Assembly: GCA_000004985.1 (NCBI GenBank)
Contig: GG738908.1
Reading direction: 5' to 3' (one strand)
Source of the DNA: Naegleria gruberi
Lineage: Eukaryota
DNA: 64,000 bases
Positions 18,359 to 39,622 of the stretch are shown here, in pieces. Positions within the stretch are counted from its first letter, which is position 1. Each line of letters starts with the position of its first letter. Below the pieces are notes generated by a model. That model was not told where the DNA came from. It did not search any database and was given only the letters and a program-made list of their open reading frames with translations. The position numbers and the translations under genes were made by a program.

Positions 18359-18408
18359 NNNNNNNNNNNNNNNNNNNNNNNNNNNNNNNNNNNNNNNNNN
18401 NNNNNNNN
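18359..18408. other. Assembly gap (50 N)
   Basis: A run of n flanked on both sides by the same ~900-bp sequence. Confidence 0.99.
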
Positions 18409-22712: not shown

Positions 22713-22768
22713 CTTATTCGGTTATGCGCATATTAACATTTATCTGGATTTCTGTCAATACCCATCTC

Positions 22769-25700
22769 NNNNNNNNNNNNNNNNNNNNNNNNNNNNNNNN
22801 NNNNNNNNNNNNNNNNNNNNNNNNNNNNNNNNNNNNNNNNNNNNNNNNNNNNNNNNNNNNNNNNNNNNNNNNNNNNNNNNNNNNNNNNNNNNNNNNNNNN
22901 NNNNNNNNNNNNNNNNNNNNNNNNNNNNNNNNNNNNNNNNNNNNNNNNNNNNNNNNNNNNNNNNNNNNNNNNNNNNNNNNNNNNNNNNNNNNNNNNNNNN
23001 NNNNNNNNNNNNNNNNNNNNNNNNNNNNNNNNNNNNNNNNNNNNNNNNNNNNNNNNNNNNNNNNNNNNNNNNNNNNNNNNNNNNNNNNNNNNNNNNNNNN
23101 NNNNNNNNNNNNNNNNNNNNNNNNNNNNNNNNNNNNNNNNNNNNNNNNNNNNNNNNNNNNNNNNNNNNNNNNNNNNNNNNNNNNNNNNNNNNNNNNNNNN
23201 NNNNNNNNNNNNNNNNNNNNNNNNNNNNNNNNNNNNNNNNNNNNNNNNNNNNNNNNNNNNNNNNNNNNNNNNNNNNNNNNNNNNNNNNNNNNNNNNNNNN
23301 NNNNNNNNNNNNNNNNNNNNNNNNNNNNNNNNNNNNNNNNNNNNNNNNNNNNNNNNNNNNNNNNNNNNNNNNNNNNNNNNNNNNNNNNNNNNNNNNNNNN
23401 NNNNNNNNNNNNNNNNNNNNNNNNNNNNNNNNNNNNNNNNNNNNNNNNNNNNNNNNNNNNNNNNNNNNNNNNNNNNNNNNNNNNNNNNNNNNNNNNNNNN
23501 NNNNNNNNNNNNNNNNNNNNNNNNNNNNNNNNNNNNNNNNNNNNNNNNNNNNNNNNNNNNNNNNNNNNNNNNNNNNNNNNNNNNNNNNNNNNNNNNNNNN
23601 NNNNNNNNNNNNNNNNNNNNNNNNNNNNNNNNNNNNNNNNNNNNNNNNNNNNNNNNNNNNNNNNNNNNNNNNNNNNNNNNNNNNNNNNNNNNNNNNNNNN
23701 NNNNNNNNNNNNNNNNNNNNNNNNNNNNNNNNNNNNNNNNNNNNNNNNNNNNNNNNNNNNNNNNNNNNNNNNNNNNNNNNNNNNNNNNNNNNNNNNNNNN
23801 NNNNNNNNNNNNNNNNNNNNNNNNNNNNNNNNNNNNNNNNNNNNNNNNNNNNNNNNNNNNNNNNNNNNNNNNNNNNNNNNNNNNNNNNNNNNNNNNNNNN
23901 NNNNNNNNNNNNNNNNNNNNNNNNNNNNNNNNNNNNNNNNNNNNNNNNNNNNNNNNNNNNNNNNNNNNNNNNNNNNNNNNNNNNNNNNNNNNNNNNNNNN
24001 NNNNNNNNNNNNNNNNNNNNNNNNNNNNNNNNNNNNNNNNNNNNNNNNNNNNNNNNNNNNNNNNNNNNNNNNNNNNNNNNNNNNNNNNNNNNNNNNNNNN
24101 NNNNNNNNNNNNNNNNNNNNNNNNNNNNNNNNNNNNNNNNNNNNNNNNNNNNNNNNNNNNNNNNNNNNNNNNNNNNNNNNNNNNNNNNNNNNNNNNNNNN
24201 NNNNNNNNNNNNNNNNNNNNNNNNNNNNNNNNNNNNNNNNNNNNNNNNNNNNNNNNNNNNNNNNNNNNNNNNNNNNNNNNNNNNNNNNNNNNNNNNNNNN
24301 NNNNNNNNNNNNNNNNNNNNNNNNNNNNNNNNNNNNNNNNNNNNNNNNNNNNNNNNNNNNNNNNNNNNNNNNNNNNNNNNNNNNNNNNNNNNNNNNNNNN
24401 NNNNNNNNNNNNNNNNNNNNNNNNNNNNNNNNNNNNNNNNNNNNNNNNNNNNNNNNNNNNNNNNNNNNNNNNNNNNNNNNNNNNNNNNNNNNNNNNNNNN
24501 NNNNNNNNNNNNNNNNNNNNNNNNNNNNNNNNNNNNNNNNNNNNNNNNNNNNNNNNNNNNNNNNNNNNNNNNNNNNNNNNNNNNNNNNNNNNNNNNNNNN
24601 NNNNNNNNNNNNNNNNNNNNNNNNNNNNNNNNNNNNNNNNNNNNNNNNNNNNNNNNNNNNNNNNNNNNNNNNNNNNNNNNNNNNNNNNNNNNNNNNNNNN
24701 NNNNNNNNNNNNNNNNNNNNNNNNNNNNNNNNNNNNNNNNNNNNNNNNNNNNNNNNNNNNNNNNNNNNNNNNNNNNNNNNNNNNNNNNNNNNNNNNNNNN
24801 NNNNNNNNNNNNNNNNNNNNNNNNNNNNNNNNNNNNNNNNNNNNNNNNNNNNNNNNNNNNNNNNNNNNNNNNNNNNNNNNNNNNNNNNNNNNNNNNNNNN
24901 NNNNNNNNNNNNNNNNNNNNNNNNNNNNNNNNNNNNNNNNNNNNNNNNNNNNNNNNNNNNNNNNNNNNNNNNNNNNNNNNNNNNNNNNNNNNNNNNNNNN
25001 NNNNNNNNNNNNNNNNNNNNNNNNNNNNNNNNNNNNNNNNNNNNNNNNNNNNNNNNNNNNNNNNNNNNNNNNNNNNNNNNNNNNNNNNNNNNNNNNNNNN
25101 NNNNNNNNNNNNNNNNNNNNNNNNNNNNNNNNNNNNNNNNNNNNNNNNNNNNNNNNNNNNNNNNNNNNNNNNNNNNNNNNNNNNNNNNNNNNNNNNNNNN
25201 NNNNNNNNNNNNNNNNNNNNNNNNNNNNNNNNNNNNNNNNNNNNNNNNNNNNNNNNNNNNNNNNNNNNNNNNNNNNNNNNNNNNNNNNNNNNNNNNNNNN
25301 NNNNNNNNNNNNNNNNNNNNNNNNNNNNNNNNNNNNNNNNNNNNNNNNNNNNNNNNNNNNNNNNNNNNNNNNNNNNNNNNNNNNNNNNNNNNNNNNNNNN
25401 NNNNNNNNNNNNNNNNNNNNNNNNNNNNNNNNNNNNNNNNNNNNNNNNNNNNNNNNNNNNNNNNNNNNNNNNNNNNNNNNNNNNNNNNNNNNNNNNNNNN
25501 NNNNNNNNNNNNNNNNNNNNNNNNNNNNNNNNNNNNNNNNNNNNNNNNNNNNNNNNNNNNNNNNNNNNNNNNNNNNNNNNNNNNNNNNNNNNNNNNNNNN
25601 NNNNNNNNNNNNNNNNNNNNNNNNNNNNNNNNNNNNNNNNNNNNNNNNNNNNNNNNNNNNNNNNNNNNNNNNNNNNNNNNNNNNNNNNNNNNNNNNNNNN

Positions 25701-25800
25701 NNNNNNNNNNNNNNNNNNNNNNNNNNNNNNNNNNNNNNNNNNNNNNNNNNNNNNNNNNNNNNNNNNNNNNNNNNNNNNNNNNNNNNNNNNNNNNNNNNNN
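22769..25800. other. Assembly gap (3032 N)
   Basis: A run of n. Confidence 0.99.
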
Positions 25801-26445
25801 GCTGAAGAATTATTAAGCCAAGAGTTTACTCCTCGTCTTTTTACAAAATTAAGCACGAAATATGATGTTGGTGTTGTGCCAAGTATGTGTACAGCATGTC
25901 GAGATGACAGAATCAACTGCTTTAAAGAAAGACCAATTTGTTCACATTGTCTTGAGAAAGGAATTCCTTGCATTTATCCCAAATTTCTTAGGTTAGCTCG
26001 TAAGTATTCCTATTACAAATGTATGTAATTTATTATTTGCAAAGCATGTGTTCCTTGTACGCAACACAGAAGCAAAGTCTGCAATAGACAAAAACCATCT
26101 TGTAACCGTTGTGCAAAAGGTGAATGTTTTTATTTCACTTCAGATACAGGTCTAATAATTGGTGATATGAAAATACGGGCAGCCAAAGAGCTCTATGCCA
26201 ATTTGGATGCAAAAGAACTAGAAGAGCCAAAAGAGAATGAACAAATGTCTGTTTCTCAGACTTTTGAAGGTTCAGATAGTGAGGATAACGATGAATCATC
26301 AATGTTGGAAATTGAGGAAAACAAAAAGAATGCATTAAAGCTTAAGGAGCAAATTCACAAGTGGAAAAAAATAGTGCAGGAAGAAAAGGAATTGAATAAC
26401 AAGAAATTGAACCAGTTGAATTATATTATTTCCGAGTTTAAATGA
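25801..26445 (+). CDS. 3' part of a gene encoding two Zn(II)2Cys6 (fungal-type binuclear cluster) motifs followed by an acidic/coiled-coil tail; the 5' end is in the gap
   Basis: The frame is open from the gap edge. Motif 1 is MCTACRDDRINCFKERPICSHCLEKGIPC (CX2CX6CX6CX2CX6C). A 45-nt intron follows at 26000..26044 with a gtaagt donor and a ttgcaaag acceptor. Motif 2 is CVPCTQHRSKVCNRQKPSCNRCAKGEC (CX2CX7CX6CX2CX4C). The ORF then runs to the stop at 26443..26445. Confidence 0.55.
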
Positions 26446-26559
26446 ATTATGATCATTTATTACCAATAGAAAGTATATTATTGACAAGGAAATAATATTC
26501 GAAGCGCTTCCTGATACAACCCTGATATCATTGGATTTGTGTGGTGATGGTACTAAGCT

Positions 26560-27600
26560 AGGTTGTGGTTTAACACTATAATACTGTGGAGTTGGGGAGT
26601 AGTAAGGTTTTGGAGATGGTTGTGGATTAATAGATGGCTGAGGAGTTGGGGGCTTTATGGAAGGTGGAGCTGGTGGATTGGTATCATTTGATGGGTTAGT
26701 ATCATTTAATATCATTTGCATTTGGTGGCAACAATCCAATTTCATCAAATGGAATTAATGTAAAATTAACACCATAGCTTGAGCTTACAATTGTAAAGCT
26801 CAAAGCAGTGATGTTGGCATAAATTGTTTTTGGAACATTGAAAGTATTGTTCGTGTAGGTACTGTACTGATAGACAGAAGAATCAATGGATGTTTATGCC
26901 TTTCCACTAATCAAATTGAATCTGATATCATTTCCCTTTGGAGCTCTTAAAGATTTCAAAAAGATTTAGTTGAAAAATATACAAGAAGTGCCACCAGCTC
27001 CTGGACCTTTAATTCTATAAACCAAGTTGTGCTTATCTTGTTGAGTGAAATAACATGATTAGCATTTGCCACTCCACAAGATAGCTACATGGTCAGCATT
27101 GTAGAGATAGTTTTGAGTGACAAGACCACCAACACCTTGTAAGTGAATGCCAGCTCTGTATGCTTTCCGATTCTTGAAAAAAAGACATTATTGTTAGAAA
27201 CATCAATAAAACTTGGAAGGAGAGTTCTTCTAACACCTCCATTAATACACCTTGTCCATTCTCATAAATGACATTATTGACAATTTTACTTCCACCATGA
27301 CATGCAGTAATCCAAATTGCATTGCTACCAGTATTTGATTTGATTGCTGTACCAGTTGTCATTTCCAATTCTATTCCTTACGTAGCAACTTTTGGTTTCA
27401 GTAGAACATTTGATTGAATGCTAACAATGTCTTCCACTGCCTCAGCCCAATCCCAATACAAATGTCCAGCAAGGAATGGCCACTTTTCTCTATTTTCACA
27501 TTTTGGATGAAGCATGTTGAAACCATTTGGATTATTCATGGATGTAACATTTTGCACACAAAGGAAGAGGAAAACCTCCTGTCACTTTCAATGACGGTCT
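26560..27600 (-). pseudogene. Disrupted ORF fragments (possible relic of a secreted beta-helix / CAZyme-like gene with Pro-rich tail)
   Basis: The minus-strand pieces are ...NPNGFNMLHPKCENREKWPFLAGHLYWDWAEAVEDIV...KPKVAT*, an in-frame TAA, then ...TGTAIKSNTGSNAIWITACHGGSKIVNNVIYENGQGV. After that the frame shifts into RAGIHLQGVGGLVTQNYLYNADHVAILWSGKC and VYRIKGPGAGGTSC, followed by a Pro-rich tract PPAPPSIKPPTPQPSINPQPSPKPYYSPTPQYY. No consistent GT-AG model joins these pieces. Confidence 0.3.
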
Positions 27601-27757
27601 CCAAATAGTTGGCGAATTGGTTTTTTTATGATTGTTTTATGTGAATTGTTACCTAATTAATGATTTTCGTTCTACGTTTGTTGAAAAACAAAATGAACAG
27701 TCAAACTTAACTGTAGATTTGGAACTAATTCAGAGCAATCAATGATATGATAGTATT

Positions 27758-28651
27758 TTACAAAGATTGGTGTCTTACTTCTTGAATGAAACTGCACTTG
27801 TCATAGGAACAGATTTCAAAGCATTTCATTTTCATTCTTCTATTATCGTACAGGATACTGACACAGGGTAAAATTGACTGGTTTTCATGTAATTTTTCAG
27901 CAATATTCGGAGCTACCACGTTCAAATAAATCTTTTCGAAAGTAATATCTGTGACATACTCCAAAGTTAAATTGTCAGTATCAATCAACAACCCAAGTAC
28001 CAATTGTTTGTACATTTTAATACCATACCCTGATTTCACACTCTTTCCTCCATAATAAATTGCTCCATCACTAAAGTAATAACCCACTGAATTCTTATCA
28101 GATCCAATATAACCTTCATTAGATTGATTTTCCAATACAATTCCAAAAAGAACGTTATCAGTCGAATCAATTTTATCCATAAACACACATTCGAAATAGT
28201 AACATCCAGTATTGATCTTGAGTGGTCTATTGATCGAGGCAATAGAGCTACCGACTGACTTTTTAAAAACAATCACATTATTTTTCAATAGTGATCGATC
28301 TTGAACAACTCTATAACTTTCCTTTCCTGCAATAACATTACAATTTCTGTAAAAGTTAATTTCCCACTTCAATTGATCAAACCAGAAATTATTCGATCCA
28401 TCTTCCTTCAATCCCTTGTTATTCCTCCACATAAACATCTTTTCATACATGAATTTGTAAAAGAAATTACCCTGTTCCGACATTCTCAACACGTGATAAA
28501 ACCTTTTGCAAACCATCGGCAAGTTAATCATAAAGAATAACCACTCTTCATTATTAGGAGGCTTGATCCATCGAAAAATCTCAACCCACAACTCATCAGG
28601 AATTTCCAAAATATGAGGATAAGTATTATTTGTTATTATTATTGATTGCAT
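27758..28651 (-). CDS. F-box-like / SPRY (B30.2) domain protein (297 aa)
   Basis: The N-terminus has IPDELWVEIFRWI (F-box-like). The C-terminus has a SPRY pattern (GCYYFECVF...LFGIVLENQSNEGYIGSDKNSVGYYFSDGAIYYGGKSVKSGYGIK...LVLGLLIDTDN). Confidence 0.7.
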   Translation of the reverse strand: MQSIIITNNTYPHILEIPDELWVEIFRWIKPPNNEEWLFFMINLPMVCKRFYHVLRMSEQGNFFYKFMYEKMFMWRNNKGLKEDGSNNFWFDQLKWEINFYRNCNVIAGKESYRVVQDRSLLKNNVIVFKKSVGSSIASINRPLKINTGCYYFECVFMDKIDSTDNVLFGIVLENQSNEGYIGSDKNSVGYYFSDGAIYYGGKSVKSGYGIKMYKQLVLGLLIDTDNLTLEYVTDITFEKIYLNVVAPNIAEKLHENQSILPCVSILYDNRRMKMKCFEICSYDKCSFIQEVRHQSL

Positions 28652-28923
28652 TTATTTCGTGTTATTCTTCACTACGATGGATAATTAGCAACCAACACTT
28701 GAAGGCTTTTTTTTGATTTTTTTGTAATGGGTTCAATCTGCCGCGCTTAAATTAAGGCTTTTTTTAATTATTAAAAAAAAATTTAGCGCCACGACTTGCC
28801 GTGCTTTTTTAGTATGAAGTTTAAAAGTCTCCGAACTGGAAAATATCTTTTGTTGAGACCTTTCGAAATTATAATGAAAGATGGAATGGTGGTAACCTAT
28901 GTGGGTGTTATCATTTCTAAAAA

Positions 28924-31900
28924 ATGGATTCCAATAACCAGCACCATCAGATTCTAATAATTTGGTTATTGTTGTTGGCAATTTTATTATTATTAACAAG
29001 TTTGCCTACTGTTGACTGCACAACATCAACTGCAAATTCATCATCATCACAAAATATTAATTATAATGAATTGGAAAACTCTCCCTCTTTTTCACTGTAT
29101 CAATTCGAACAATCACCTCCTGTAAATATTCAAGAACTTTCCGGAAAGAGAGAAATTCAAAACAACTTTATGAGTATTGCTACCATGCAAAACAAATTCT
29201 ACAGCTCTGCTTCACAGATAATTGTCCGTTTGATGATGAAAAACACATCAAATACAGAAGCAATTTGTTCGGAGAATGATCCTTGTTATAGTTTTAGTCA
29301 ACTGTTTGACAGTATGAAATTATTGATGGATAGAAATATTCAAGCGATGACTGCCAAAAATGTTACTGTTAATATTCTGTTTCTTGTAAATATTGATAGT
29401 GACCTATTGTTAAATACCTATGGGGATGTTAATTTACCATCAAATCCATTGATTTCTTACTTTTTCATGTTCCAAAGTTCTGACAAGAGAGTTTTGAATT
29501 TTCAAATTGAACCTACAATATATTTGGATTTGAAAAATAGATCTGATATTTCTTGGATGTTATTTAATAATCTTGAAATGGTAAACTTTGGCATTATGAC
29601 AACCTTTATCAATCTTGATATTGGATATGTGAATTGCAAATTGAAAACGTGTCAAATACAGCATATTTTCCAAGGTGATTACCAGGAAATGTCCACAACA
29701 ACAAATTTCCTAGTAGAGAGTACTGAAATATTCGATTCTTACATTGCTGTTGCCTCTTCCTTCCTAACCTTATTCAAAGATTGTAAATTTATTGGAAATG
29801 ATAACCTTGGGACCAATTTACTACTGAAATTATCCAATCAACTTGTTTTTGATAATATTGTGATGAGTAATGCTTATTTGTTGATATCAATTGATGAAAC
29901 CAATATTGTCATATTTAAGCAGGGACAATTTACAACTTCTCGATTAATTGTTTCTACTATTAATGTGAAGAAAGTCCACATTAGCTATGTGAATGCTATT
30001 GACTGTTCCAAAGATAATATTTTCTTTGCAATATTATTTTCTGATTCGTGCACAATAGTGAATTCATTCTTCCAGAGATCAGGTTCAATTCTGAATATAA
30101 GAGGTGTAAAGAACCTTAATATTGCAAACGTTGAATTCGATGAAAATGTTCAAACCGAGGCAGTTTCAAATGCTCAAACCTCACCAATTGAACTCAAAAT
30201 CATTGACAACTTGTTAATGATAAATGTCACTGTTCGAAATCAGTACAGCAACTATTTAAATACTGCCTACGCACTATATATTCAGGATGTTATCAGGTTG
30301 AAAATTGATGATTGTTATTTTGTGAATAACAGAATTGGAGCTCTGAGAATTCACAATCCAATTTTTTCTGAATCCTACAAGTATTCGGCTTCCATTACCA
30401 AGACACGTTTTGTTGCCAACAAATGTTCAACTGCTGGATGTGCAATGTCTTTGGAAATGATATTCTACTTGAATATTTCGGAATGCCAATTTAATGATAA
30501 TGATTCACCATCAGATGGAGGTGCGATTGTTGCTACTGCATTACAGAGATCTCTTATTTCTGATTGCACTTTTCAAAATAATATAGCTCAAGGAAATGGT
30601 GGTGCAATTGCTTTTGGAGGTATTATTGTTTATCCAAACGAGGTTTCAGGTTGTGTGTTTATTCGAAATAAGGCAAAAAAGGCAGGAGGTATTTATTTTG
30701 AGAAAAATAATTTAAAATCAATCAAAAATTCCAAATTTTTCGAGAATAGTGCTGATTATGCTGGTGCCATCTACTCATTAGGTAGCTTACCTCAATCATT
30801 TGTGAATTCATGTTCGTTCTCTAACAATCAAGCTTTCAAGTTTGGTGATAATTTTTTGGCACTAGCTGAAAGAGTTGCTCCCACACAAATATTGGAAGGA
30901 ATGAAACTTCTCAAGCCAGGACAAACCGTAAGCATCAATGTAACTGCATATTCATACGATGGCGAACCAATTCCTCTAGACTCAATGCCTTTCATATGGC
31001 CTAAACGATTTTTTGGTAAGAGACTTTTTGTTGATGTTGTGCAAGAAGCTTTCAAAATGAGCTTCACACCATATGTTGTGAACTATCCAGAGTTGGACGA
31101 AGAGTACTCAGTGATCATTTCTGTTGCGAATATTACCGCTGTATCAATAGTTGTTAGTAACTGTTCAGAAGGAGAACAACTGAAACCTTTTGCATTGGCC
31201 TCGGTAGCCAATATCTATTCTTGTGAACAGATTTCACAACTTTCATTCACACTATTTCTTGCTATTTTACTCCCTGTTTCACTTATTGTATTTGGTCTCG
31301 GTATTATTGTGACAATTTGTATAATGAAAGGGATAGTTCATATTCGAAAGAGACTTGTTTTATTAAGAGAGAAGGAACATGCTGAGAGATCAGTAGAAAA
31401 GAGAATAATAGATAAGAAAATTATTTTTGGAGATTCATATCAGCCATTAATTGATGAGAGTGAGAATAGTCTTGATAGCATGCGTTATGGACAGGAATTG
31501 AAAGCACGATCATTCATCATACCAATTTCTGAACTTACAATTGAAAGGAAATTAGCTGAGGGTGGTCAAGGAGTTGTATATGTGGGTAATTGGGGTTCTT
31601 CAACTGTTGCAATTAAATCTTTGAAATCAGATCAAAGTGAAGGTTTTGAAACTGAAGTCAGTTTACTAGCATCTCTTAGACATCCATGTATTTTGACATT
31701 CTATGGAATTTCCATAACAAATGACAGCAAATACATGATAACTGAATATTTGTCAGGTGGAAGTTTGGAGAAATTGATTTATTCAAGCAAGACAAAAACA
31801 ATTGCTTTGACATATATGGAAAAGATAAATATCCTTAAAGATATTGCAATAGGAATGAATTATTTGCATACATTGACACCTCCTATAATTCATAGGGATC

Positions 31901-32477
31901 TGGTAAGTTTTAAAATATTCACATTGTATTCATTGAAAATTATTAGAAACCTGGCAATGTATTGCTTGACAACAACAATAGATGTAAAATTGCTGATTTC
32001 GGCTTGAGCTTGCCTCTTTCGCAATCCAATACTACAATGACCAAAAATATTGGCACTTTTATTTACATGGGACCTGAATCTATCAGTTCAAACACAACAA
32101 GTAATTCAGGTGTTGACAAATCTCAAAGAGCTCCCAAAGTTGATGTGTACAGCTTTGCTATTATTATGTGGGAGCTATTCTTTGAGGTATCTCCATATTC
32201 TCAATCGGAGAAGGTTAATTATGTATTACAACATTCAATAGGTGATATAATTGCACGAGTTTTACAAGGAGAAAGACCAAGTATTCCATTTCAAAATGAA
32301 ATTGAGCTCGAGGAATGGTTACTATTGTATCCAGTACGTGAAAACCTATCAAAAGAAGCACTTGTGAAGAGTATTCTTAAGTATTGTAATATTGTCAGGC
32401 AGTGTTGGCATTCAAATCCAATGGAGAGGCCTTCGTTTTCACAAATAATTCAATTATTGAATGGTTTGACGAATTGA
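28924..32477 (+). CDS. Receptor-like protein kinase. It has a signal peptide, a ~740-aa ectodomain with parallel beta-helix (PbH1, 'GGAI') repeats, one transmembrane helix and a TKL-type kinase domain. 2 exons
   Basis: The exons are 28924..31902 and 31947..32477. The intron falls inside the kinase catalytic loop: HRDL|gtaagtttt...tattag|KPGNVLLDNNNRCKIADFGLS. The signal peptide is MDSNNQHHQILIIWLLLLAILLLLTSLPTVDC. The transmembrane helix is FTLFLAILLPVSLIVFGLGIIVTICIM. The kinase has GGQGVVYVGNW...VAIKSLK, DFG and (C)WHSNPMERPSF. Confidence 0.75.
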
Positions 32478-32743
32478 TTTATACCGTTACAAAATAAATA
32501 TTGTGAAAATTAAAAATCCACCGCAAAAAATAAAACAACAACATAACTTTGATGCAAGCCATTTCATCATCTTCTTTTATAATAACAGTTACTTGGCAAG
32601 AAGGAGATAAAAAGAAATAGAATTTGTAGTTCATATTCCATTGTAGTTTGAAAACCGCCTTTTTGAGAAGAGGTTTGGATTCATAGATATGATAACTACA
32701 ATCGCCATGAACCTCCAAATACTAATAAGAAAAATTATCGTAA

Positions 32744-33327
32744 ATGTCTCATGCAATTGGTGTATTGTTATTGTTCATTATTTGTATGATGGTAAGTAGA
32801 GTTGCAACCATAAATTAATTTATTCTTCGTGATGATAACAGAGTGTTTTGAGCAATGTTCTCGGCTCAGCCTCATCATCTTCATTATCGGGATGTGTAAC
32901 AGATGTCTATTCAATTCCCTATGAAATGTTTGCGAGTCGAATTATTGTTAATAAGGATCAAGATTTGCAATACAAAGTCAAGATTGTAAAGAAGGCTAGT
33001 AATACAAGGAGCAGTAATCTTCTCTCCTCTGATAATACATTGGTAGAGCTCAAGATTGCCTATGATGCTGGATTGAGCGGTGTTGGATCTGTTGGCTATT
33101 CTTTCAATGACACATTAGGATCCATCGTTTTAGAAATCAAATCCAATACTAATGATAATAGTAATAATAATAATAATAATACTGATATCAGCAATCCTAA
33201 CAATTCAACCATTTTCAATTCAACACAACCTGTAAATAATTCATCCAACAATAGTAATTCAACAACAACAACTAATCCTCAAACAAGTACAAATCCAACA
33301 AAACCTTCACCCACCATATTATGGTAA
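32744..33327 (+). CDS. Putative secreted Ser/Thr/Asn-rich protein (2 exons)
   Basis: Exon 1 is 32744..32791 (MSHAIGVLLLFIICMM, hydrophobic leader). The intron has a gtaagtag donor and an ataacag acceptor. Exon 2 is 32842..33327. The C-terminal third is a poly-N/S/T tract. Confidence 0.4.
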
Positions 33328-33770
33328 AACCGAAAAAGTCTTTGGTTGTTTCATGTGCATCATCGAATAGAGGATTTGTGGAGGGTGTCATTGTTAAATT
33401 GATGAAGAATGGTCTATTCCTTATCTATTCATCAGTTGCATTGTTGTTATTGGGTATTTTCAATTCCATTCATATTACCCAAACAAGAAATGGATTAATA
33501 TTCTCAATGATAGTGTTGGTAATTGCATTTATTGTAATGGGAGGTCAAGTATCACATGCAGTCACAGATCAAGTTTCAGAGATGAAAAGTGGTCTTTCTT
33601 GTGCCATTCCAACTATTACCATCACTGTTCCATCCACATTTGAAATAGATTTAAAACAGGAGGATCCTTCACTTTCACCTGAATTCAAAACAGAAGTGAA
33701 CTTTCTTCCAAAACAAATACAGCTTCATTTCAAAATGGAAGAAATGGATATCAAGGCGAAGAGGCTCTAA
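33321..33770 (+). CDS. ORF with two predicted TM helices; could be a separate small gene or an unresolved exon of a neighbouring gene
   Basis: A 149-aa ORF in a different frame from both neighbours. The TM segments are LFLIYSSVALLLLGIF and LIFSMIVLVIAFIVMGG. Confidence 0.25.
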   Translation: MVKPKKSLVVSCASSNRGFVEGVIVKLMKNGLFLIYSSVALLLLGIFNSIHITQTRNGLIFSMIVLVIAFIVMGGQVSHAVTDQVSEMKSGLSCAIPTITITVPSTFEIDLKQEDPSLSPEFKTEVNFLPKQIQLHFKMEEMDIKAKRL

Positions 33771-33781
33771 CCATCTCTACT

Positions 33782-36700
33782 ATGTATATTGACAACTGGA
33801 ATGAAATGAATGGACAAACATTCTATGAAGATGATGTTTTATTTGTTGGTTTCTCTGGAACCAGTTTCGAGGGAAGAACGTTAATGAGATTCAGCAACTT
33901 GCAAGGTAAATTACCAGTTGGTGCCTATATTAGCTCTGCATCATTGGATTTGACCTATGTAGCCTGGGTGAAAGGATGTAAGATTAGAGTCAATTATTTG
34001 AATAATACTTGGGTTGTGGCCAAGAAAACAGGTTGGAGATTTAGAAATTACGACCAGAAACTGGAATGGATTAGTGCAGGAGGAGATGTATTATCTAATT
34101 CTTATTCTGTTATGGAAAGTGGAATGAGTGATGATGGAAATCAAATCAAATCCATAGCTCTGGATCCTTATATTGTACAATCGTGGTTTGATGATAATTC
34201 AAAGAATAATGGCGTCATGATTAGCGAGGTTATAGGAACCACCATCAAACCAACAATCTTCGGAGGAAACTCTACTATTAGCTTCAGACCAAGATTAACA
34301 ATAACCTACCAATTACAACCAACCAAGCCTCCACAATACCCAATGGTTTTAGGCTTATTACCACTGAGAATATTTGTACAATCCAAGACTGTTAATTGCT
34401 CACAAATTGATTGTGGCGATGATGATACTGGATCTGGAGCTATCAATGCTCCTTTCAGATCCCTCGCGAAGGCCATCACATTTGCACAACCAAATGATAT
34501 TATTTTGTTGAGAGAGGGTGTTCATGCAGGTAATGTTCAAATTACAAGAAGAAATATTACCATTCAGTCCTACTCAAATGAGAAGGCAATCATTGCTAGC
34601 CCTGTGAATGACCCATCCATTGCAATAGCTCTCTATTTTAGAAGAGATTCTTCGTATTCTACTCTGAGAAATGTAGAACTTGTGGGAGGTTTTGATTATG
34701 CAATCAGATTAGAGTCCAGTATTGATTGGGGTGGAAATAACCTGAAATATGGAGCATCTAATATTGTTATTGAAAATTGTAAGATACACGGTAGTGGCTA
34801 TCACCTAATTAAGATTGACTCTCTTTGTGAGAATGTAAATATTAGAAATAATGAACTTTTTGATGCTGGTAAAAGAGTTAGAACTGGTGGAAGTGCTATT
34901 GTTTGCTATGATACTTTCATGACCAGAATCCAGGATAATTACATTCACCACACTATGGGCGCAGCAGTAATGATCAAGTCAGGTGCCAGAAATTCAATAA
35001 TTGAAAGAAATTATATTAACAAAATTTATGGAGCTGGTATTTTAGTTGGTTTTTATGAGACTGGAGAGTATTTTAGTGATCCAAGCCAGAATCCTCTCTA
35101 TTATCAAGCCGTTAATACCATTGTGAGAAACAATATTCTGAATGATATTTCTGGAGCTGGAATAGGACTTTATTCTGCAAAAAATACACTTATCCTATTC
35201 AACACTATTTGGAAAGCTGCAAAAGATAACCAGGCAGGTATTTTAATTAATGTTGTTCAAACATGGGTCAGTAACAGCTACTCGCCTATTGTACCTTGTA
35301 CCAATGTTACAATCATGAATAATATCATTGGTACAGCTACTGAAAGAATTATAGAGATTCGAACACTCACTAGCTATGTTGATGATTCAGTTGTTGGAGG
35401 ACTAGAGGGTAATATGAATGTATCTTTCAATATTTACTATTCCATGAAGAATGCTAATGGAGTGAATGGTCTCTTTTCTGATCAGAGAAATACTATTGGT
35501 TATGTTGGAGGATTCTCAGGATGGCAAACTAAATATCAGGATTATGGAAGTGTTGAAGGAAATCCTCTAATTGATCCAATAGCTTATTATCCCACCTCAA
35601 CTTCAAATGCTATCGGAAAAGGAATGTATATTCCCTCCACAATCTCAGATTACTTTGGAAGACCAATGAAATCCAAGTTGGTGACTATTGGTGCCTTACA
35701 GTTCCTCAATGATGGTTTCGAAGATGATCCAACCATGAAATATTCCATTACTAACATTATTTACAATCCTTCATTTAATGGAACTGTTCCACCAAAAGAT
35801 GTGCCAACTTGGGCACCTCCAACCACATACAGAACTATTTACGTATCTGCAACCAATGGTAACGACAATTCAGGAAATGGTACCATTGTCAATCCTTTTA
35901 AAACCATCAAAAAGGTTACTGATTCCTCTTTCGCAAAGGATAATGATATTGTAATTGTGAGAGGTGGTATTTATCAAGAAGGAGCCATTCGTATATCTTC
36001 AACCAATTATACTATCAAATCTTATGAGAATGAGATTGTCACGATTGTTAGTGATATTAACAATGGTAATATTTTATGGGGAATTAAAACCTTTTCCAAA
36101 TTTGTAACCATTGAAGGGTTGGAAATTGTTGGTTCATTCTACTATGGACTAATGATTGACTCTTCAGATGTTACCATAAGAAAGGTCAAGATTCATGATA
36201 CAGGTTCAGATTGTATTAAACTTTCTCCTTTCACCAAGAGAATTTCCATTCTCCAGAGCGAAATTTACCATTGTGGAAAGAGAAAAACCTATCAAGCAGG
36301 TAATCCAAATCAAGATTCAGCAAGTGGTGATGGCATTCGATGTGTTAATGTAGATGATGTATTCATTAGTAGAAATTACATTCACGATCTCACTGGAACA
36401 GCCATAAAAACTCAAGGAGGAGGTCTTAGGGCTATAATTGAGAGAAATCTCATTCTTAATATTGGAGGCTTAGGAATTACTTTAGGATTTTATGAAGAAA
36501 CTTCCTATATGGATCCAACACAGAATGTATACTACTATGAAGCTATTGAAGGATTAGTGAGGAATAATATTATAGTCAATGTGCAAGGATGTGGTGTAGG
36601 TCTCTATGCATCGAAAAATTCTAGAGTTTTACACAATACCATTGTGAGTTCAGCCCTTTCGATGCAAGTTCCTATTTTATTGGCTGCTAGTCCTCATACA

Positions 36701-39622
36701 ATCAATAGCGTAGAGATTGCAGGTCAGAGTAATCACAATCCAATGGTTAAGAATAATATTGTGCAAGTTTCAGAATCTGGTATAACTCAGACAATTTATG
36801 AAATCAGAGTTCAGGATGGAGATGCTTTGGATAACTCTAAACTAGATTCAAATTTCAATATTTATTACAGTAATTTCAATAATTACCATGGAAACTCTTT
36901 GGCGAATATCAATTTTATGGATAGAAGATTATCAAGCTACCTGTTTACTTCTGATTTTCATTTATGGAGAGCTCATATTCAATCTGATTACAACTCGTCT
37001 ATAACTGATCCAAAACTTGATTTCAATTTGAACATTGGAGAAGACAGTCCAGCTAGAAATACAGCACCTCTTCTTTCTGAAGTTTCTGAAGATTTCTATG
37101 GTAATTCAAGATCAGAAAACAATAATGACATTGGTGCCCTATTATTCACAACTGATTTGTCAAATTCTTCGTACTATCCTCCTGTAGTTGGAAGTTTATT
37201 ATTGAAGAGTGGTAAAAACGTATGCTCTGGAAATATGAGCTCGTTTGAAACTCCTAGAACCTACTATGTACATAATATTGAGGGTTCGGACACTGATTGT
37301 TTGGGAACTTTTGACATGCCCTTCAAAACTATTCAACAGGCACTCGCGGTAGCTTCTCCCTTCAGTAATATAACGATAAGGTACACTGGAGTGTCCTACA
37401 ATGAATCGTTATCTATCAAGACACCCTATTTGAGAATTTCAACATTTGAGAATGATCCATACGAGGCATTGATTCTTTCTTCAATTTATTCACCATCTAT
37501 TCTTCATACTTTGAGATTTGAATCAACTGCTTTCGGTTGTTCTCTTAGTAGATTACATCTTCAAGGAGGATATTTCTATACTCTTAAAGTAGATGCAGAT
37601 AATATTCAAGTAGATCGCTCAATTATTCACTATTGCGGTACTAAATGTGTGTTTGCCTTAAATGCTGATAATTTCACACTCACCAACAGCGAAGTGTATG
37701 ATTCTGGAATGAGAGATCCAAGCGAAGGTGAAGGAGTTCATGCGGTTGTTTCCCATAACTTTGAATGTAAGGACAACTATGTTCATGACATTACTGCCGA
37801 TGCTATCAAATTAGAAGGAGGGTCATCTCACGCAATAATTGCTGGTAATGCTATTTCTAATGCAGATAGAGGTATTCTAGTTGGTGGAAGAATTGATAAT
37901 TTGGATTTATTTGAAAAATCTAATACTCATCTTTATGAAACGTATAATTCTTCGGTTTATAATAATATTATTTCAAACACATTTGGAGTTGGAATTGCAA
38001 TGTATGGAGCTAAGCAATGTGAAATTTATTTCAATACCATTCTGAATACATGTATTACTAACACACAAGGAGCAGCCATTCATTTGGCTAGTACGAAACA
38101 TAGAAATTTAGTTATTACTCCAGTTGACTCCCTAGTTATTGTAAACAATATTGTTTATAATAGCGATCCAAGCAATGCAGGTGCCATGATTAGAATTGAT
38201 GAAGGTCTTGAGGGTTTTTCAGCATCCATCACTGGATCTGTCGTAATGAACAATAACCTGTATTATTCCAACAAATCATCCGTGTTTGTGGATGGAAGAA
38301 AGGCAACTAAATTTTCAGGAAACTTTAATATTTGGAAAACTCAAATCTCCAACTACTTTGGAAATGGAAACGAAGTCAACAGCTTGAACGTAGCTCCATT
38401 ATTAGATACTGATAATCTTTCTCCAAAGGGCTCTTCACCTGTGATATCTTCTGGACAAATTTCTTCAATAACTCAATCCATAACAAGCGATTTTTATGGC
38501 AATGTCAGAGATTCAATTAATTCTTCTGATATTGGTGCCATAGTGGGTGATGCTCTCATTGTTTCCAAATCAAAGCCAAGAACTATTCCACTGAATATTT
38601 CTAAGATTGCCCTCTCCAAAAGTTCAAACATTGTTAGATATCCTCCAAGCGGAAAGCAATCAACATGGTTTGTTCCTGGCTATACAACAGTTGACGATCC
38701 ATCCCTGTTTGATTTGTCCAATTGTTCTATCTATCCTTCTGATAATCCATGGAATCAAGATATTTCCAATCTACCTGTTCATCCTCGATCTGATGCCTTC
38801 ATTAATAATGTACCAAAGAAGTTTCTTCATGCAGACTTTGGAACGACATACGATGGTGCACTGAATGGTATTCCTTATGTAATTGTAACCAAAGATCAAG
38901 AAAAAGTTGGAATTACTCTGACTTCCTATGCTTCTGAATCTGATCCAGGTCCATATCCATTTCCAGAAGGAGCTCCTATTGAGGGAGGCCCTAATTCTAA
39001 TGGAGATCGACATATAATTGTATTGGAAAAGGATAGTTGTAAGCTGTACGAAACTTGGAGAACTTTCCCTATTTTGAAACAGTATCGTGAATCAGAGGGA
39101 GGAAACTTTTTCACAGCCGAATGTGGAGCTATTTTCGATTTGAAGTCAAACAATTTAAGACCACTTGGATATACTTCATCTGATGCGGCTGGTTTACCTG
39201 TTTATCCAGGACTTGTAAAGTATGACGAAATTGTTGTAAAGAAACAACTCAATCATGCTGTCAGATTCACAGTAATGACAAGTCAGAAAGCTTACATCTT
39301 ACCAGCTACTCACTTTGCCTCCTCAAATACGAATCCAAATATCATGCCAATGGGATTGAGATTGAGAATGAAGGCAACCTATGATTGTTCTCTCTTATCA
39401 GAGGAAATTCAAGTAATTTGCGCAGGATTGAAAAAGTTTGGCATGATTTTGGCAGACAATGGTGGAGATTTTTATGTTTCAGGATCTCCACATCCATTGT
39501 GGGATGATAATCACCTCAATGATATGAAGAAGATTCCATCTCTTGCCTTTGAAGTTGTCTACACTGGAAAGACATGTATTGATCCTAGTTGTAACACATG
39601 GAGAGATGAAATTATCAATTAA
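33782..39622 (+). CDS. Giant (1946 aa) protein with three tandem right-handed parallel beta-helix (pectin-lyase-fold) modules and a conserved ~330-aa C-terminal domain
   Basis: One uninterrupted ORF. Three modules each start with a NPFKTIKK / APFRSLAKA / MPFKTIQQAL ... (R)GG(I)Y motif. Each is followed by about 20 NxI/NNxI beta-helix rungs (IHHT/IHD motifs, FYE(E)T..Y.DP.QN..YY.A insertions). The C-terminal domain is GDRHIIVLEKDSCKLYETWRTFP...ICAGLKKFGMILADNGGDFYVSGSPHPLWDD. Confidence 0.8.
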   Translation: MYIDNWNEMNGQTFYEDDVLFVGFSGTSFEGRTLMRFSNLQGKLPVGAYISSASLDLTYVAWVKGCKIRVNYLNNTWVVAKKTGWRFRNYDQKLEWISAGGDVLSNSYSVMESGMSDDGNQIKSIALDPYIVQSWFDDNSKNNGVMISEVIGTTIKPTIFGGNSTISFRPRLTITYQLQPTKPPQYPMVLGLLPLRIFVQSKTVNCSQIDCGDDDTGSGAINAPFRSLAKAITFAQPNDIILLREGVHAGNVQITRRNITIQSYSNEKAIIASPVNDPSIAIALYFRRDSSYSTLRNVELVGGFDYAIRLESSIDWGGNNLKYGASNIVIENCKIHGSGYHLIKIDSLCENVNIRNNELFDAGKRVRTGGSAIVCYDTFMTRIQDNYIHHTMGAAVMIKSGARNSIIERNYINKIYGAGILVGFYETGEYFSDPSQNPLYYQAVNTIVRNNILNDISGAGIGLYSAKNTLILFNTIWKAAKDNQAGILINVVQTWVSNSYSPIVPCTNVTIMNNIIGTATERIIEIRTLTSYVDDSVVGGLEGNMNVSFNIYYSMKNANGVNGLFSDQRNTIGYVGGFSGWQTKYQDYGSVEGNPLIDPIAYYPTSTSNAIGKGMYIPSTISDYFGRPMKSKLVTIGALQFLNDGFEDDPTMKYSITNIIYNPSFNGTVPPKDVPTWAPPTTYRTIYVSATNGNDNSGNGTIVNPFKTIKKVTDSSFAKDNDIVIVRGGIYQEGAIRISSTNYTIKSYENEIVTIVSDINNGNILWGIKTFSKFVTIEGLEIVGSFYYGLMIDSSDVTIRKVKIHDTGSDCIKLSPFTKRISILQSEIYHCGKRKTYQAGNPNQDSASGDGIRCVNVDDVFISRNYIHDLTGTAIKTQGGGLRAIIERNLILNIGGLGITLGFYEETSYMDPTQNVYYYEAIEGLVRNNIIVNVQGCGVGLYASKNSRVLHNTIVSSALSMQVPILLAASPHTINSVEIAGQSNHNPMVKNNIVQVSESGITQTIYEIRVQDGDALDNSKLDSNFNIYYSNFNNYHGNSLANINFMDRRLSSYLFTSDFHLWRAHIQSDYNSSITDPKLDFNLNIGEDSPARNTAPLLSEVSEDFYGNSRSENNNDIGALLFTTDLSNSSYYPPVVGSLLLKSGKNVCSGNMSSFETPRTYYVHNIEGSDTDCLGTFDMPFKTIQQALAVASPFSNITIRYTGVSYNESLSIKTPYLRISTFENDPYEALILSSIYSPSILHTLRFESTAFGCSLSRLHLQGGYFYTLKVDADNIQVDRSIIHYCGTKCVFALNADNFTLTNSEVYDSGMRDPSEGEGVHAVVSHNFECKDNYVHDITADAIKLEGGSSHAIIAGNAISNADRGILVGGRIDNLDLFEKSNTHLYETYNSSVYNNIISNTFGVGIAMYGAKQCEIYFNTILNTCITNTQGAAIHLASTKHRNLVITPVDSLVIVNNIVYNSDPSNAGAMIRIDEGLEGFSASITGSVVMNNNLYYSNKSSVFVDGRKATKFSGNFNIWKTQISNYFGNGNEVNSLNVAPLLDTDNLSPKGSSPVISSGQISSITQSITSDFYGNVRDSINSSDIGAIVGDALIVSKSKPRTIPLNISKIALSKSSNIVRYPPSGKQSTWFVPGYTTVDDPSLFDLSNCSIYPSDNPWNQDISNLPVHPRSDAFINNVPKKFLHADFGTTYDGALNGIPYVIVTKDQEKVGITLTSYASESDPGPYPFPEGAPIEGGPNSNGDRHIIVLEKDSCKLYETWRTFPILKQYRESEGGNFFTAECGAIFDLKSNNLRPLGYTSSDAAGLPVYPGLVKYDEIVVKKQLNHAVRFTVMTSQKAYILPATHFASSNTNPNIMPMGLRLRMKATYDCSLLSEEIQVICAGLKKFGMILADNGGDFYVSGSPHPLWDDNHLNDMKKIPSLAFEVVYTGKTCIDPSCNTWRDEIIN

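What the first reader, a model, noticed from the sequence alone, without database searches (positions are those of the whole stretch)
26560..39622. Cluster of parallel beta-helix (PbH1) protein genes: a degraded relic, a receptor kinase and a 1946-aa triple beta-helix protein
Three neighbouring loci within 13 kb encode right-handed beta-helix repeat proteins. The first is disrupted fragments at 26560..27600 that show an in-frame stop and frame shifts. The second is a receptor-like kinase whose ectodomain is made of 'GGAI' PbH1 repeats (28924..32477). The third is a giant protein with three tandem pectin-lyase-fold modules and a distinctive C-terminal domain (33782..39622). A fourth PbH1/G8 gene lies at 52473..57868. 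These could be carbohydrate-binding or carbohydrate-degrading proteins. If so, this is a local family expansion with one member decaying and one recruited as a kinase-coupled sensor. The giant protein has no obvious signal peptide in its own ORF. An upstream exon providing a leader could exist; 32744..33770 holds a hydrophobic-leader gene and a TM-containing ORF in other frames.
Basis: partly seen in the sequence, partly recalled or inferred. Interest (0 to 1): 0.55.

Follow-up and report, generated by a model that had tools for sequence, protein, structure and literature searches.

The report
Unrelated beta-helix surface genes in Naegleria
Four neighbouring genes in the amoeba Naegleria gruberi all use beta-helix-type repeats but are not copies of one another, and the most interesting part is an uncharacterised, highly conserved end-domain on a giant membrane-anchored surface protein that probably acts on polysaccharides.

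Summary
The window is a Naegleria gruberi NEG-M draft scaffold. The idea that they are a local family expansion is not supported.

- **Giant protein.** Its three modules are homologous to each other (27-31% identity). A profile built from them finds nothing else in the window.
- **Other loci.** The kinase ectodomain carries Chlamydia-Pmp-type GGAI repeats. The fourth gene is G8/CEMIP-type. The "relic" has no detectable homologue.
- **Relic.** It is a coding-like stretch on the minus strand with at least 5 frame switches and at least 3 in-frame stops, so it looks like a pseudogene. Its beta-helix identity is not shown.
- **Kinase.** It is an intact TKL receptor-like kinase with one 44-nt intron.
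- **Giant gene extent.** It starts at 32744. The full order is signal peptide, N-domain, TM hairpin, DNRLRE/CBM96-like domain, three ancient beta-helix modules, then a 296-aa C-terminal domain.
- **C-terminal domain.** It has thousands of bacterial relatives at 55-60% identity, no Pfam or PDB match, and weak double-psi-barrel and phage tail-protein fold resemblance.
- **Conservation.** Orthologues exist in N. fowleri, N. lovaniensis and a malawimonad, without the kinase next door.
- **Reference annotation.** Model XP_002671097.1 wrongly fuses the kinase and the giant gene.
- **Open point.** Two frameshifts in the giant gene's 5' part are unresolved.

The parts
26470..27580 (-). Pseudogene-like remnant (the 'relic'). 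Coding-like codon usage runs through frames f2>f1>f0>f1>f0>f1 with in-frame stops. A Pro-rich stalk and a hydrophobic tail continue to about 26338. Family not established.
   Evidence: codon-usage LLR; 0/500 shuffles. (no significant family or homologue).
28924..31902 (+). Receptor-like kinase, exon 1. Contains the signal peptide (aa 1-32), the ectodomain, a TM segment (about aa 775-800) and the N-lobe of the kinase up to HRDL.
30556..30873 (+). Pmp-type 'GGAI ... FxxN' repeats in the kinase ectodomain (aa ~545-650).
   Evidence: Pfam Chlam_PMP 34.8 bits (cut-off 20.6). TIGR01376 POMP_repeat 23.3 bits (cut-off 15).
31903..31946 (+). 44-nt GT-AG intron of the kinase gene. Removing it restores HRDL|KPGNVLL.
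   Evidence: sequence; spliced 1169-aa product.
31947..32477 (+). Kinase exon 2: the C-lobe (DFG, GPE) and the stop codon. TKL-group kinase.
   Evidence: best PDB relatives CTR1, TNNI3K, RIPK2, LysM-RLKs.
32744..32791 (+). Giant gene exon 1: a 16-codon hydrophobic leader (MSHAIGVLLLFIICMM).
   Evidence: The N. fowleri orthologue also starts with a hydrophobic leader.
32792..32841 (+). 50-nt GTAAGT...AG intron of the giant gene.
   Evidence: The acceptor at 32841/32842 is also used by the reference model.
32842..33324 (+). Giant gene: a conserved small N-domain (CVTDVYSIPY...), then an Asn/Ser/Thr-rich linker. The first frame break lies at about 33310..33327.
   Evidence: (colinear tblastn with P0001/P0002).
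33414..33545 (+). Two hydrophobic segments (TM hairpin) in the frame +3 piece 33327..33716.
   Evidence: Also present in orthologues P0001-P0003.
33717..33717 (+). Second frame break: a 1-base deletion relative to N. lovaniensis (CAA-ATACA versus CAATATACA).
33812..34306 (+). DNRLRE / CBM96-like domain.
   Evidence: NF033679: 33.4-33.6 bits in the window (cut-off 34), 44.6 and 44.9 bits in orthologues. PMC9971899.
34367..35851 (+). Beta-helix module 1, with a DUF1565-like N-cap.
35852..37426 (+). Beta-helix module 2.
37427..38731 (+). Beta-helix module 3.
38732..39622 (+). C-terminal 296-aa domain of an uncharacterised, very large family, followed by the stop codon.
   Evidence: no Pfam, PDB-sequence or NCBIfam match. 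(6671 representative clusters; 55-61% identity to bacterial proteins). (pLDDT 93). (fold searches).
52473..57868 (-). Temptin/fn3/G8/CEMIP-beta-helix/EGF/VWD/TM surface protein gene. It has a 46-nt intron at 55835..55880 and an apparent frameshift near 53800..53830.

Best explanation
The interval holds three unrelated genes on a Naegleria gruberi scaffold. It is not a duplicated family.

**1. Relic (26470..27580, minus strand).** This is the decayed remnant of a small surface-protein gene of unknown family.

**2. Kinase (28924..32477).** This is an intact single-pass TKL receptor-like kinase. Part of its ectodomain carries Chlamydia-Pmp-type repeats.

**3. Giant gene (32744..39622).** It encodes a surface protein of about 2270 aa. 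The order of parts is:
- signal peptide;
- small N-domain;
- TM hairpin;
- DNRLRE/CBM96-like carbohydrate-binding-type domain;
- three ancient tandem right-handed beta-helix modules that keep the same conserved polar residues;
- a 296-aa C-terminal domain.

**Inferred mechanism.** The TM hairpin anchors the protein in the plasma membrane. Both the N-domain and the long beta-helix arm face outward. The arm binds extracellular polysaccharide and probably cleaves it. The substrate could be prey bacterial envelope or biofilm matrix, or the amoeba's own wall material. The C-terminal domain would be a further glycan-active module.

**Shown versus inferred.** The domain identities, the internal triplication, the orthology and the lack of relatedness between the loci are shown. 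The membrane topology, the catalytic activity and the substrate are inferred.
For: **Species and gene identity**
- Orthologues at 66%, 65% and 49% identity over 100% of the ORF.
- The N. gruberi protein XP_002671097.1 matches the window translation wherever it was compared by eye.

**Gene extent**
- The N-terminal 260 aa of the orthologues map colinearly onto 32887..33734.

**Modules**
- Internal similarity. Each module is above the Pfam Beta_helix cut-off.
- Orthologous modules are 50-73% identical and paralogous ones 28-33%. The triplication is therefore old.
- A colinear homologue exists in the malawimonad Gefionella.

**No relationship to neighbours**
-.
- No conserved synteny.

**Carbohydrate link**
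- DNRLRE domain.
- Profile hits to solved structures are all beta-helix proteins that act on carbohydrates, or phage tailspikes, but they are weak.
- The C-terminal domain co-occurs with GH44, heparinase II/III, CBM60, agarase-type GBD, PKD, BACON and Beta_helix domains.
- Foldseek matches phage minor tail proteins and phage beta-helix proteins at E 1e-12 to 1e-9.

**Topology**
- Hydropathy analysis.
Against: - Bacterial gene neighbourhoods of C-domain homologues are uninformative.
- The window sequence has two frame breaks in the 5' part of the giant gene. As it stands, the leader and TM hairpin are not in frame with the 1946-codon ORF, so the gene may be inactive in this strain.
- Beta-helix arrays can be adhesins rather than enzymes.
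- The Pmp assignment of the kinase ectodomain covers only about 100 of 760 residues. The AF2 model of the ectodomain was unusable (pLDDT 35).
Confidence: 0.6

Rival explanations
1. The four loci are a local expansion of one beta-helix gene family. One copy is decaying (the relic) and one has been recruited as the ectodomain of a kinase-coupled sensor.
For: - All loci have beta-helix-type sequence features and lie within 31 kb.
- hhalign of the module profile gives marginal one-on-one P values: 0.02 for the G8 gene and 0.05 for the relic.
Against: - The loci fall in different Pfam families.
- The module HMM and phmmer find no cross-hits in the window.
- The relic's hhalign score is matched by 8 of 80 shuffles.
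- The relic has no homologue at all.
- The giant gene's neighbours differ in other Naegleria species.
- The triplication inside the giant gene predates the species split.
Confidence: 0.05
2. The giant gene is a recently inactivated pseudogene in strain NEG-M. On this view the frame breaks at about 33320 and at 33717 are real mutations rather than draft-sequence errors. The break in the G8 gene would be real too. Relaxed selection in bacteria-free culture might explain this.
For: - Three frame breaks sit in otherwise conserved coding sequence.
- The break at 33717 is not in a long homopolymer.
- From my own knowledge, NEG-M is an axenically adapted laboratory strain. I did not verify this here.
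Against: - The 1946-codon ORF and the 130-codon TM-hairpin piece between the breaks are both fully open and conserved. Any inactivation would therefore have to be very recent.
- The scaffold is draft quality, with four N gaps in 64 kb.
- The N. fowleri assembly shows an apparent frame break in its copy too, judged from the tblastn coordinates.
Confidence: 0.3
3. The kinase and the giant protein form one fused 3072-aa gene, as in the reference annotation (XP_002671097.1 / NAEGRDRAFT_53111).
For: - The two are on the same strand with only 266 bp between the kinase stop and the giant gene's ATG.
- The reference model exists.
Against: - The model skips the kinase C-lobe exon, which completes a canonical kinase domain after a clean 44-nt intron.
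- It also skips 545 nt whose translation is conserved in orthologues.
- The orthologues are stand-alone genes with their own leaders, and no kinase is called within the 10 kb upstream.
Confidence: 0.03
4. The giant protein is a non-catalytic adhesin or surface-coat protein. Its beta-helix arm and C-domain bind prey or substratum but cleave nothing.
For: - Many beta-helix surface proteins are adhesins, for example the Pmp and autotransporter passenger domains (established knowledge).
- No catalytic family was assigned.
- DNRLRE/CBM96 is a binding module.
Against: - The same polar residues (His, Glu, Arg and the YIHD motif) are invariant in all nine modules compared.
- The C-domain has 49 invariant columns rich in Asp, His, Glu and Arg across 120 sequences, at 55-60% identity between bacteria and the amoeba. 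That pattern is more typical of an enzyme.
- The C-domain co-occurs with catalytic CAZy modules.
Confidence: 0.3

Closest known systems
Archaeal and bacterial DNRLRE-domain / parallel beta-helix surface proteins (Methanosarcina disaggregatase-related proteins; DNRLRE = CBM96 relatives)
   Same: - An N-terminal DNRLRE-type domain followed by right-handed beta-helix repeats in an extracellular protein.
- The literature places DNRLRE in disaggregatase and S-layer proteins and in alginate, hyaluronate and pectate lyases (PMC9971899; PMC2447325 listed).
   Different: - This protein is eukaryotic and anchored by a TM hairpin after a signal peptide.
- It has three tandem modules of about 450-525 aa and an extra C-terminal domain of an unassigned family.
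- The DNRLRE score in the window copy is 0.4-0.6 bit under the cut-off.
Beta-helix polysaccharide lyases and hydrolases, and phage tailspike or minor tail proteins (Pfam Beta_helix PF13229, Pel9A-like PF22842, GH120 xylosidase 3vst)
   Same: - Pfam Beta_helix matches in all modules.
- Pel9A-like hits are precomputed for the orthologues.
- A DUF1565-like N-cap.
- Weak profile hits to GH120, pectin methylesterase, alpha-1,3-glucanase and tailspikes.
- The C-domain fold matches phage minor tail proteins and phage beta-helix proteins.
   Different: - No close characterised relative. The best PDB profile hit, E 2.5e-6, covers only the 60-residue cap.
- No catalytic motif of a named CAZy family was identified.
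- No sequence-level phage homologue.
Double-psi beta-barrel glycan-active proteins (MltA lytic transglycosylases, expansins, GH45, RlpA/loosenins, cerato-platanins)
   Different: - The domain is about 290 aa, far larger than a DPBB core.
- Equivalence of catalytic residues was not examined.
Chlamydial polymorphic membrane protein (Pmp) repeats, and TKL receptor-like kinases (plant CTR1 and LysM-RLKs; amoebal transmembrane kinases)
   Same: - GGAI/FxxN repeats above the Pfam and TIGRFAM cut-offs.
- A kinase domain with intact VAIK, HRDLKPGN and DFG motifs, closest to TKL kinases.
- A single-pass receptor layout.
   Different: - Pmp repeats joined to a eukaryotic kinase are not the bacterial autotransporter context.
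- Only about 4 repeats are detectable.
- The remaining ~650 ectodomain residues have no family assignment.
CEMIP / TMEM2 / PKHD1-type G8 beta-helix proteins
   Same: The gene at 52473..57868 has a G8 domain (E 8e-29) and a CEMIP beta-helix (E 9e-47).
   Different: - It combines these with Temptin, fn3, EGF, VWD/RGM-like parts and a C-terminal TM segment.
- It is unrelated in sequence to the giant gene's modules.

Membership tests
Right-handed parallel beta-helix (Pfam Beta_helix PF13229): giant protein modules | Profile match above the curated gathering score in each module | tested here: met
   48.7, 62.7 and 49.9 bits against a cut-off of 25.9. 122 bits for the whole ORF.
Right-handed parallel beta-helix: giant protein modules | Three-dimensional beta-helix fold of the modules | not tested
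   Both structure-prediction jobs went to the C-domain and the kinase ectodomain.
Parallel beta-helix (PbH1): relic at 26470..27580 | Significant profile or homologue match to a beta-helix family | tested here: not met
   - NosD E 0.012, 15.5 bits against a cut-off of 23.6.
- No homologue. No PDB hit.
- hhalign against the modules is no better than shuffles.
- Only motif-level resemblance remains.
   tblastn, module HMM against the six-frame window, phmmer with the kinase ectodomain, hhalign.
   N. fowleri and N. lovaniensis have peptidase S9 upstream and Kelch/BTB downstream of the giant gene. No kinase or G8 gene is called within the 10-kb flanks.
Chlamydia Pmp repeat (PF02415 / TIGR01376): kinase ectodomain | GGA[ILV] ... 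FxxN repeat profile above the curated cut-off | tested here: met
   34.8 bits against 20.6. 23.3 bits against 15. About four repeats are visible at aa 545-650.
Chlamydia Pmp repeat: kinase ectodomain | Beta-helical fold of the whole ectodomain | tested here: inconclusive
   Single-sequence AF2 model with pLDDT 35.
Eukaryotic protein kinase, TKL group | Complete catalytic domain with VAIK Lys, HRDLKxxN and DFG | tested here: met
   - Pfam PK_Tyr_Ser-Thr hits on both exons.
- Motifs are visible in the spliced product.
- The best PDB relatives are CTR1, TNNI3K and RIPK2.
DNRLRE domain (NF033679; CBM96 relatives) | Profile match above the curated cut-off of 34 bits | tested here: inconclusive
   The window copy scores 33.4-33.6 bits. 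The orthologous domains of N. lovaniensis and of the metagenomic relative score 44.6 and 44.9 bits.
DNRLRE domain (CBM96 relatives) | Carbohydrate binding | not testable with these tools
   Needs binding assays.
Double-psi beta-barrel glycan-active fold: C-terminal domain | Significant structural match to DPBB proteins | tested here: inconclusive
   [not shown]
Double-psi beta-barrel glycan-active fold: C-terminal domain | Catalytic Asp at the psi-loop position | not tested
Invariant Asp, His and Glu columns are listed.
G8 / CEMIP family: gene at 52473..57868 | G8 domain followed by a CEMIP-type beta-helix | tested here: met
   G8 at 100.5 bits and CEMIP_beta-hel at 160 bits. GRYPVHFH is restored across the 46-nt intron.

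The most novel reading that the evidence does not exclude
The 296-aa C-terminal domain (38732..39619) defines a very large family that has not been described. It would be a family of extracellular glycan-active enzymes built around a divergent double-psi-barrel-like core.
- The family has at least 6600 clusters at 50% identity and no match in Pfam, NCBIfam or PDB sequences.
- Soil bacteria carry it, phage tail proteins share its fold, and free-living protists (Naegleria and the malawimonad Gefionella) have it at the tip of membrane-anchored triple beta-helix arms.
- In the amoeba the whole protein would be a surface-displayed depolymerase for prey bacterial envelopes or biofilm matrix.
Probability: 0.3. 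Interest if true: 0.6.

Novelty: new member of a known kind. Interest (0 to 1): 0.3.

Why it matters
- **The cluster itself is ordinary.** Unrelated surface-protein genes happen to share a common repeat architecture. A beta-helix "look" in raw sequence should not be read as evidence of duplication.
- **Annotation correction.** The N. gruberi reference model XP_002671097.1 is a chimera of a receptor kinase and a surface beta-helix protein. The correct models are a 1169-aa kinase and a surface protein of about 2270 aa.
- **A lead worth following.** The C-terminal domain is one of the better-conserved unassigned domains I could find evidence for. It is 55-60% identical between amoeba and bacteria and has thousands of members. 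Its partners include GH44, heparinase-like, CBM60 and PKD domains, and it resembles phage tail proteins in fold. Characterising one small bacterial member would annotate thousands of proteins. It could also show how bacterivorous amoebae handle prey polysaccharides.

Tried and rejected
- **Wrong first guess on the organism.** I initially took the window for a dictyostelid because of the Asn-rich tracts and low GC. The orthologues showed Naegleria.
- **Misread "GC 3.6%" tract.** I first read 22-26 kb as an AT-only repeat, and the >1000-codon ORFs on both strands there as real. It is a 3032-base run of N, an assembly gap.
- **Exact-protein look-ups.** Window ORFs and P0153 are not on record.
- **Splicing the relic.** I looked for GT-AG introns that would join its frames. 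Only 11-15-nt GT..AG stretches exist, so no plausible splice path was found.
- **Splicing around the giant gene's first frame break.** The one candidate I worked through (donor at 33326, acceptor at 33693) creates a TGA, and the skipped segment is conserved in orthologues.
- **Relic homologues.** None by word-indexed search, Pfam or PDB. The comparison with the module profile was no better than shuffles.
- **Kinase ectodomain structure.** The single-sequence AF2 model was unusable, pLDDT 35.
- **Fold libraries.** Foldseek against the PDB gave nothing for the C-domain. The afdb50 library was unavailable.
- **Bacterial gene neighbourhoods.** Three C-domain homologues showed no conserved operon.
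- **Metagenome DNA scans.** The search for a near-identical strain to check the frameshifts found no exact match. Sixteen matches to the degenerate pattern were returned, but those loci were not yet available to the follow-up tblastn, so they remain unchecked.
- **Literature.** Searches on locus tags and conserved motifs found nothing.
- **Phage sequence search.** tblastn with the C-domain found no match.

Full report
**Source of the window.** The long ORF at 33782..39622 has full-length orthologues in Naegleria lovaniensis (P0001, 66% identity), N. fowleri (P0002, 65%) and an environmental relative (P0003, 49%). The Naegleria gruberi protein XP_002671097.1 (NAEGRDRAFT_53111, P0153) matches the window translation wherever I compared the two by eye. 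The window is therefore a N. gruberi NEG-M draft scaffold. It contains four runs of N: 15544..16658, 18359..18408, 22769..25800 and 43843..44355. The "GC 3.6%" tract seen is one of these gaps, not an AT-rich repeat.

**The giant gene.**
- *Internal repeats.* The 1946-codon ORF is real. Its three modules (34367..35851, 35852..37426, 37427..38731) are mutually homologous, with tblastn E 1e-26 to 1e-56 at 27-31% identity. Each passes the Pfam Beta_helix gathering score at 48.7, 62.7 and 49.9 bits against 25.9.
- *Age of the triplication.* In a nine-module alignment, orthologous modules are 50-73% identical and paralogous ones only 28-33%. The same polar residues are invariant in all nine (KIH, SE.Y..G.R, YIHD, Asn ladders). 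The triplication is therefore old. A 2917-aa protein of the malawimonad Gefionella okellyi is colinear with the Naegleria protein at 31-32% identity.
- *Domain before the modules.* A DNRLRE-type domain precedes the modules. It scores 33.4-33.6 bits in the window against a cut-off of 34, and 44.6 and 44.9 bits in two orthologues. The literature relates this domain to the alginate-binding CBM96 and finds it in several polysaccharide lyases (PMC9971899).
- *True 5' end.* The orthologues are 130-260 aa longer at the N-terminus. That extension maps colinearly onto 32887..33734 in three different frames. The gene therefore begins at 32744. Exon 1 is a 16-codon hydrophobic leader, followed by a 50-nt GTAAGT..AG intron (32792..32841). 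Exon 2 then encodes a small conserved N-domain, an Asn/Ser-rich linker and two hydrophobic segments (33414..33545) before the DNRLRE domain.
- *Inferred topology.* A signal peptide followed by a TM hairpin would place both the N-domain and the 2000-aa beta-helix arm outside the cell. This is an inference.

**Frame breaks.**
- In the window, the 5' part of the giant gene is out of frame with the long ORF at two places.
- One break lies near 33310..33327, in a poorly conserved linker.
- The other is a clean 1-base deletion at 33717 relative to N. lovaniensis (CAA-ATACA versus CAATATACA).
- The G8 gene has a similar break inside its VWD-like domain near 53800.
- The intervening and downstream ORFs are fully open and conserved. 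The breaks are therefore either draft errors or very recent mutations, and I could not tell which.
- The reference annotation avoided the breaks by inventing introns. P0153 joins the kinase at "IIHRDL" directly to giant exon 2, and then jumps from "PSPTIL" to "CFEGRTLMRF".
- That model omits the kinase C-lobe and 545 nt of conserved coding sequence, so it is a chimera.

**The C-terminal domain (38732..39619).**
- *No family assignment.* It matches nothing in Pfam, NCBIfam or PDB sequences.
- *Size of the family.* A full HMMER scan found 6671 representative clusters at E ≤ 1e-3 and 1470 at E ≤ 1e-30. The word-indexed search returned about 8000 proteins at E ≤ 1e-20. Most are 280-480-aa "hypothetical proteins". 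The few that carry organism names come from Pyrinomonadaceae, Nannocystaceae, Polyangiaceae, Planctomycetota and Dehalococcoidia. They are 55-61% identical to the amoeba domain.
- *Conservation.* An alignment of 120 sequences has 49 invariant columns, rich in Asp, His, Glu and Arg (for example E84, D92-R93-H94, H175, R178, H194, D242-N243, E274).
- *Phage link.* Foldseek against viral models gives strong matches (E 1.7e-12 to 1e-9, TM 0.58-0.69). These include a Gordonia phage minor tail protein and a phage "parallel beta-helix repeat" protein. There is no sequence-level phage hit.
- *Domain partners.* In other proteins the domain sits beside Beta_helix, PKD, BACON, GH44, heparinase II/III-like, CBM60 and agarase-type galactose-binding domains.
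- *Gene neighbourhoods.* Bacterial contexts were uninformative.
- *Conclusion.* Taken together, these points suggest an extracellular carbohydrate-active module. No activity can be assigned.

**The kinase.**
- The gene runs 28924..31902 plus 31947..32477. A 44-nt GT-AG intron restores HRDL|KPGNVLL.
- The 1169-aa product has a signal peptide, an ectodomain of about 740 aa, one TM segment and a complete kinase domain.
- The kinase domain is closest to TKL kinases such as CTR1, TNNI3K, RIPK2 and LysM-RLKs.
- Its "GGAI" repeats match the Chlamydia Pmp repeat (Pfam PF02415 at 34.8 bits against 20.6; TIGR01376 at 23.3 against 15). They do not match the Beta_helix/PbH1 profile.
- Only about four repeats, at aa 545-650, are detectable. 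The single-sequence AF2 model of the ectodomain was unusable at pLDDT 35.

**The relic.**
- *Coding signal.* On the minus strand of 26470..27580, codon usage is coding-like. It scores 0.23 bits per codon, the same as held-out genes (0.20-0.35). Intergenic controls score at most 0.02, and 0 of 500 shuffles reach the observed value.
- *Disruption.* The best frame changes f2>f1>f0>f1>f0>f1, and at least three stops lie inside positive-scoring frames. One switch sits in a T7 run. No GT-AG path repairs it.
- *Not a sequencing artefact.* The flanking Zn-cluster gene next to the gap and the F-box/SPRY gene both read cleanly. Local sequence quality is therefore not the explanation, and this is most likely a pseudogene.
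- *Family unknown.* The translated fragments look like PbH1 repeats (IVNNVIYENGQG, VSNNNVFF, GIHLQGVGGLVTQNYLYN). The only profile hit is NosD at E 0.012. There is no homologue and no PDB hit. Its hhalign score against the giant-module profile is matched by 8 of 80 shuffles.

**The fourth gene.** The gene at 57868..52473 (minus strand) has Temptin, fn3, G8 (E 8e-29), CEMIP beta-helix (E 9e-47), EGF and VWD/RGM-like parts and a TM segment. Its 46-nt intron restores GRYPVHFH.

**Are the loci related?**
- tblastn with each giant module finds only the other two modules.
- An HMM of 12 modules from four species finds nothing else in the six-frame window; the best other E is 1.4.
- phmmer with the kinase ectodomain finds only itself.
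- hhalign gives P 0.22 for the kinase, 0.02 for the G8 gene and 0.05 for the relic. These values are compatible with a shared repeat architecture at most.
- In N. fowleri and N. lovaniensis the giant gene lies between a peptidase S9 gene and Kelch/BTB genes. No kinase or G8 gene is called within the 10-kb flanks. In the window the downstream neighbour is an MFS transporter.
- The local-expansion reading is therefore not supported.

**Verdict.** The evolutionary interpretation fails. What remains of interest is a corrected pair of gene models, a conserved protist surface protein that probably acts on carbohydrates, and an uncharacterised, very widespread C-terminal domain.

Noticed in passing
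window 28924..39622: The N. gruberi reference protein XP_002671097.1 / NAEGRDRAFT_53111 (3072 aa) is a chimeric model. It joins kinase residues 1-993 directly to exon 2 of the giant gene. It then skips 545 nt of conserved coding sequence (the TM hairpin and the start of the DNRLRE domain).
   Followed up: yes
window ~33310..33327, 33717 and ~53800..53830: Three apparent single-base frame breaks sit in otherwise conserved, open coding sequence of two large surface-protein genes. They are either draft errors or recent strain-specific mutations.
   Followed up: partly
window 15544..16658, 18359..18408, 22769..25800, 43843..44355: These are assembly gaps (runs of N). They produce false very-low-GC readings and false >1000-codon ORFs on both strands at 22724..25973.
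   Followed up: yes
window 25801..26445 (+): A gene fragment emerges from the gap with a fungal-type Zn(2)-Cys(6) binuclear cluster domain (Pfam Zn_clus, E 4e-8). After a GTAAGT intron there is a second Cys-rich stretch of similar pattern and an acidic tail.
   Followed up: partly
window 46022..46764: A tandem array of a 46-bp AT-rich unit (about 16 copies, 81% matches) lies inside a low-GC stretch at 44.4-47 kb.
   Followed up: no
L002 ~15307..15318 (N. fowleri VFQX01000007.1): Judged from the tblastn coordinates, the N. fowleri orthologue shows a frame break inside module 3. The annotated protein P0002 has a short aberrant segment there, and the locus does not translate to the deposited protein.
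   Followed up: no
L003 (JGI metagenome 3300062347, contig Ga0606064_0136, 50 kb): An environmental contig carries a 49%-identical full-length homologue of the giant gene among eukaryote-type genes (Sec5, MFAP1, WD40). It is presumably an unsampled heterolobosean relative.
   Followed up: no
P0006 (Gefionella okellyi transcript, 2917 aa): A malawimonad protein is colinear with the Naegleria giant protein (DNRLRE-like domain, beta-helix modules, C-domain) and has three extra fn3 domains at its N-terminus. The architecture is either old in eukaryotes or was transferred between protists.
   Followed up: partly
window 27758..28651 (-): An intact 297-aa ORF with weak F-box (E 1e-3) and SPRY (E 2e-3) matches separates the relic from the kinase gene.
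   Followed up: no
window 58596..60620 (-): A 674-aa ORF has an N-terminal TM segment and an extracellular-sensor-like region. By eye it has a C-terminal nucleotide-cyclase-like part. It was not scanned against profiles.
   Followed up: no
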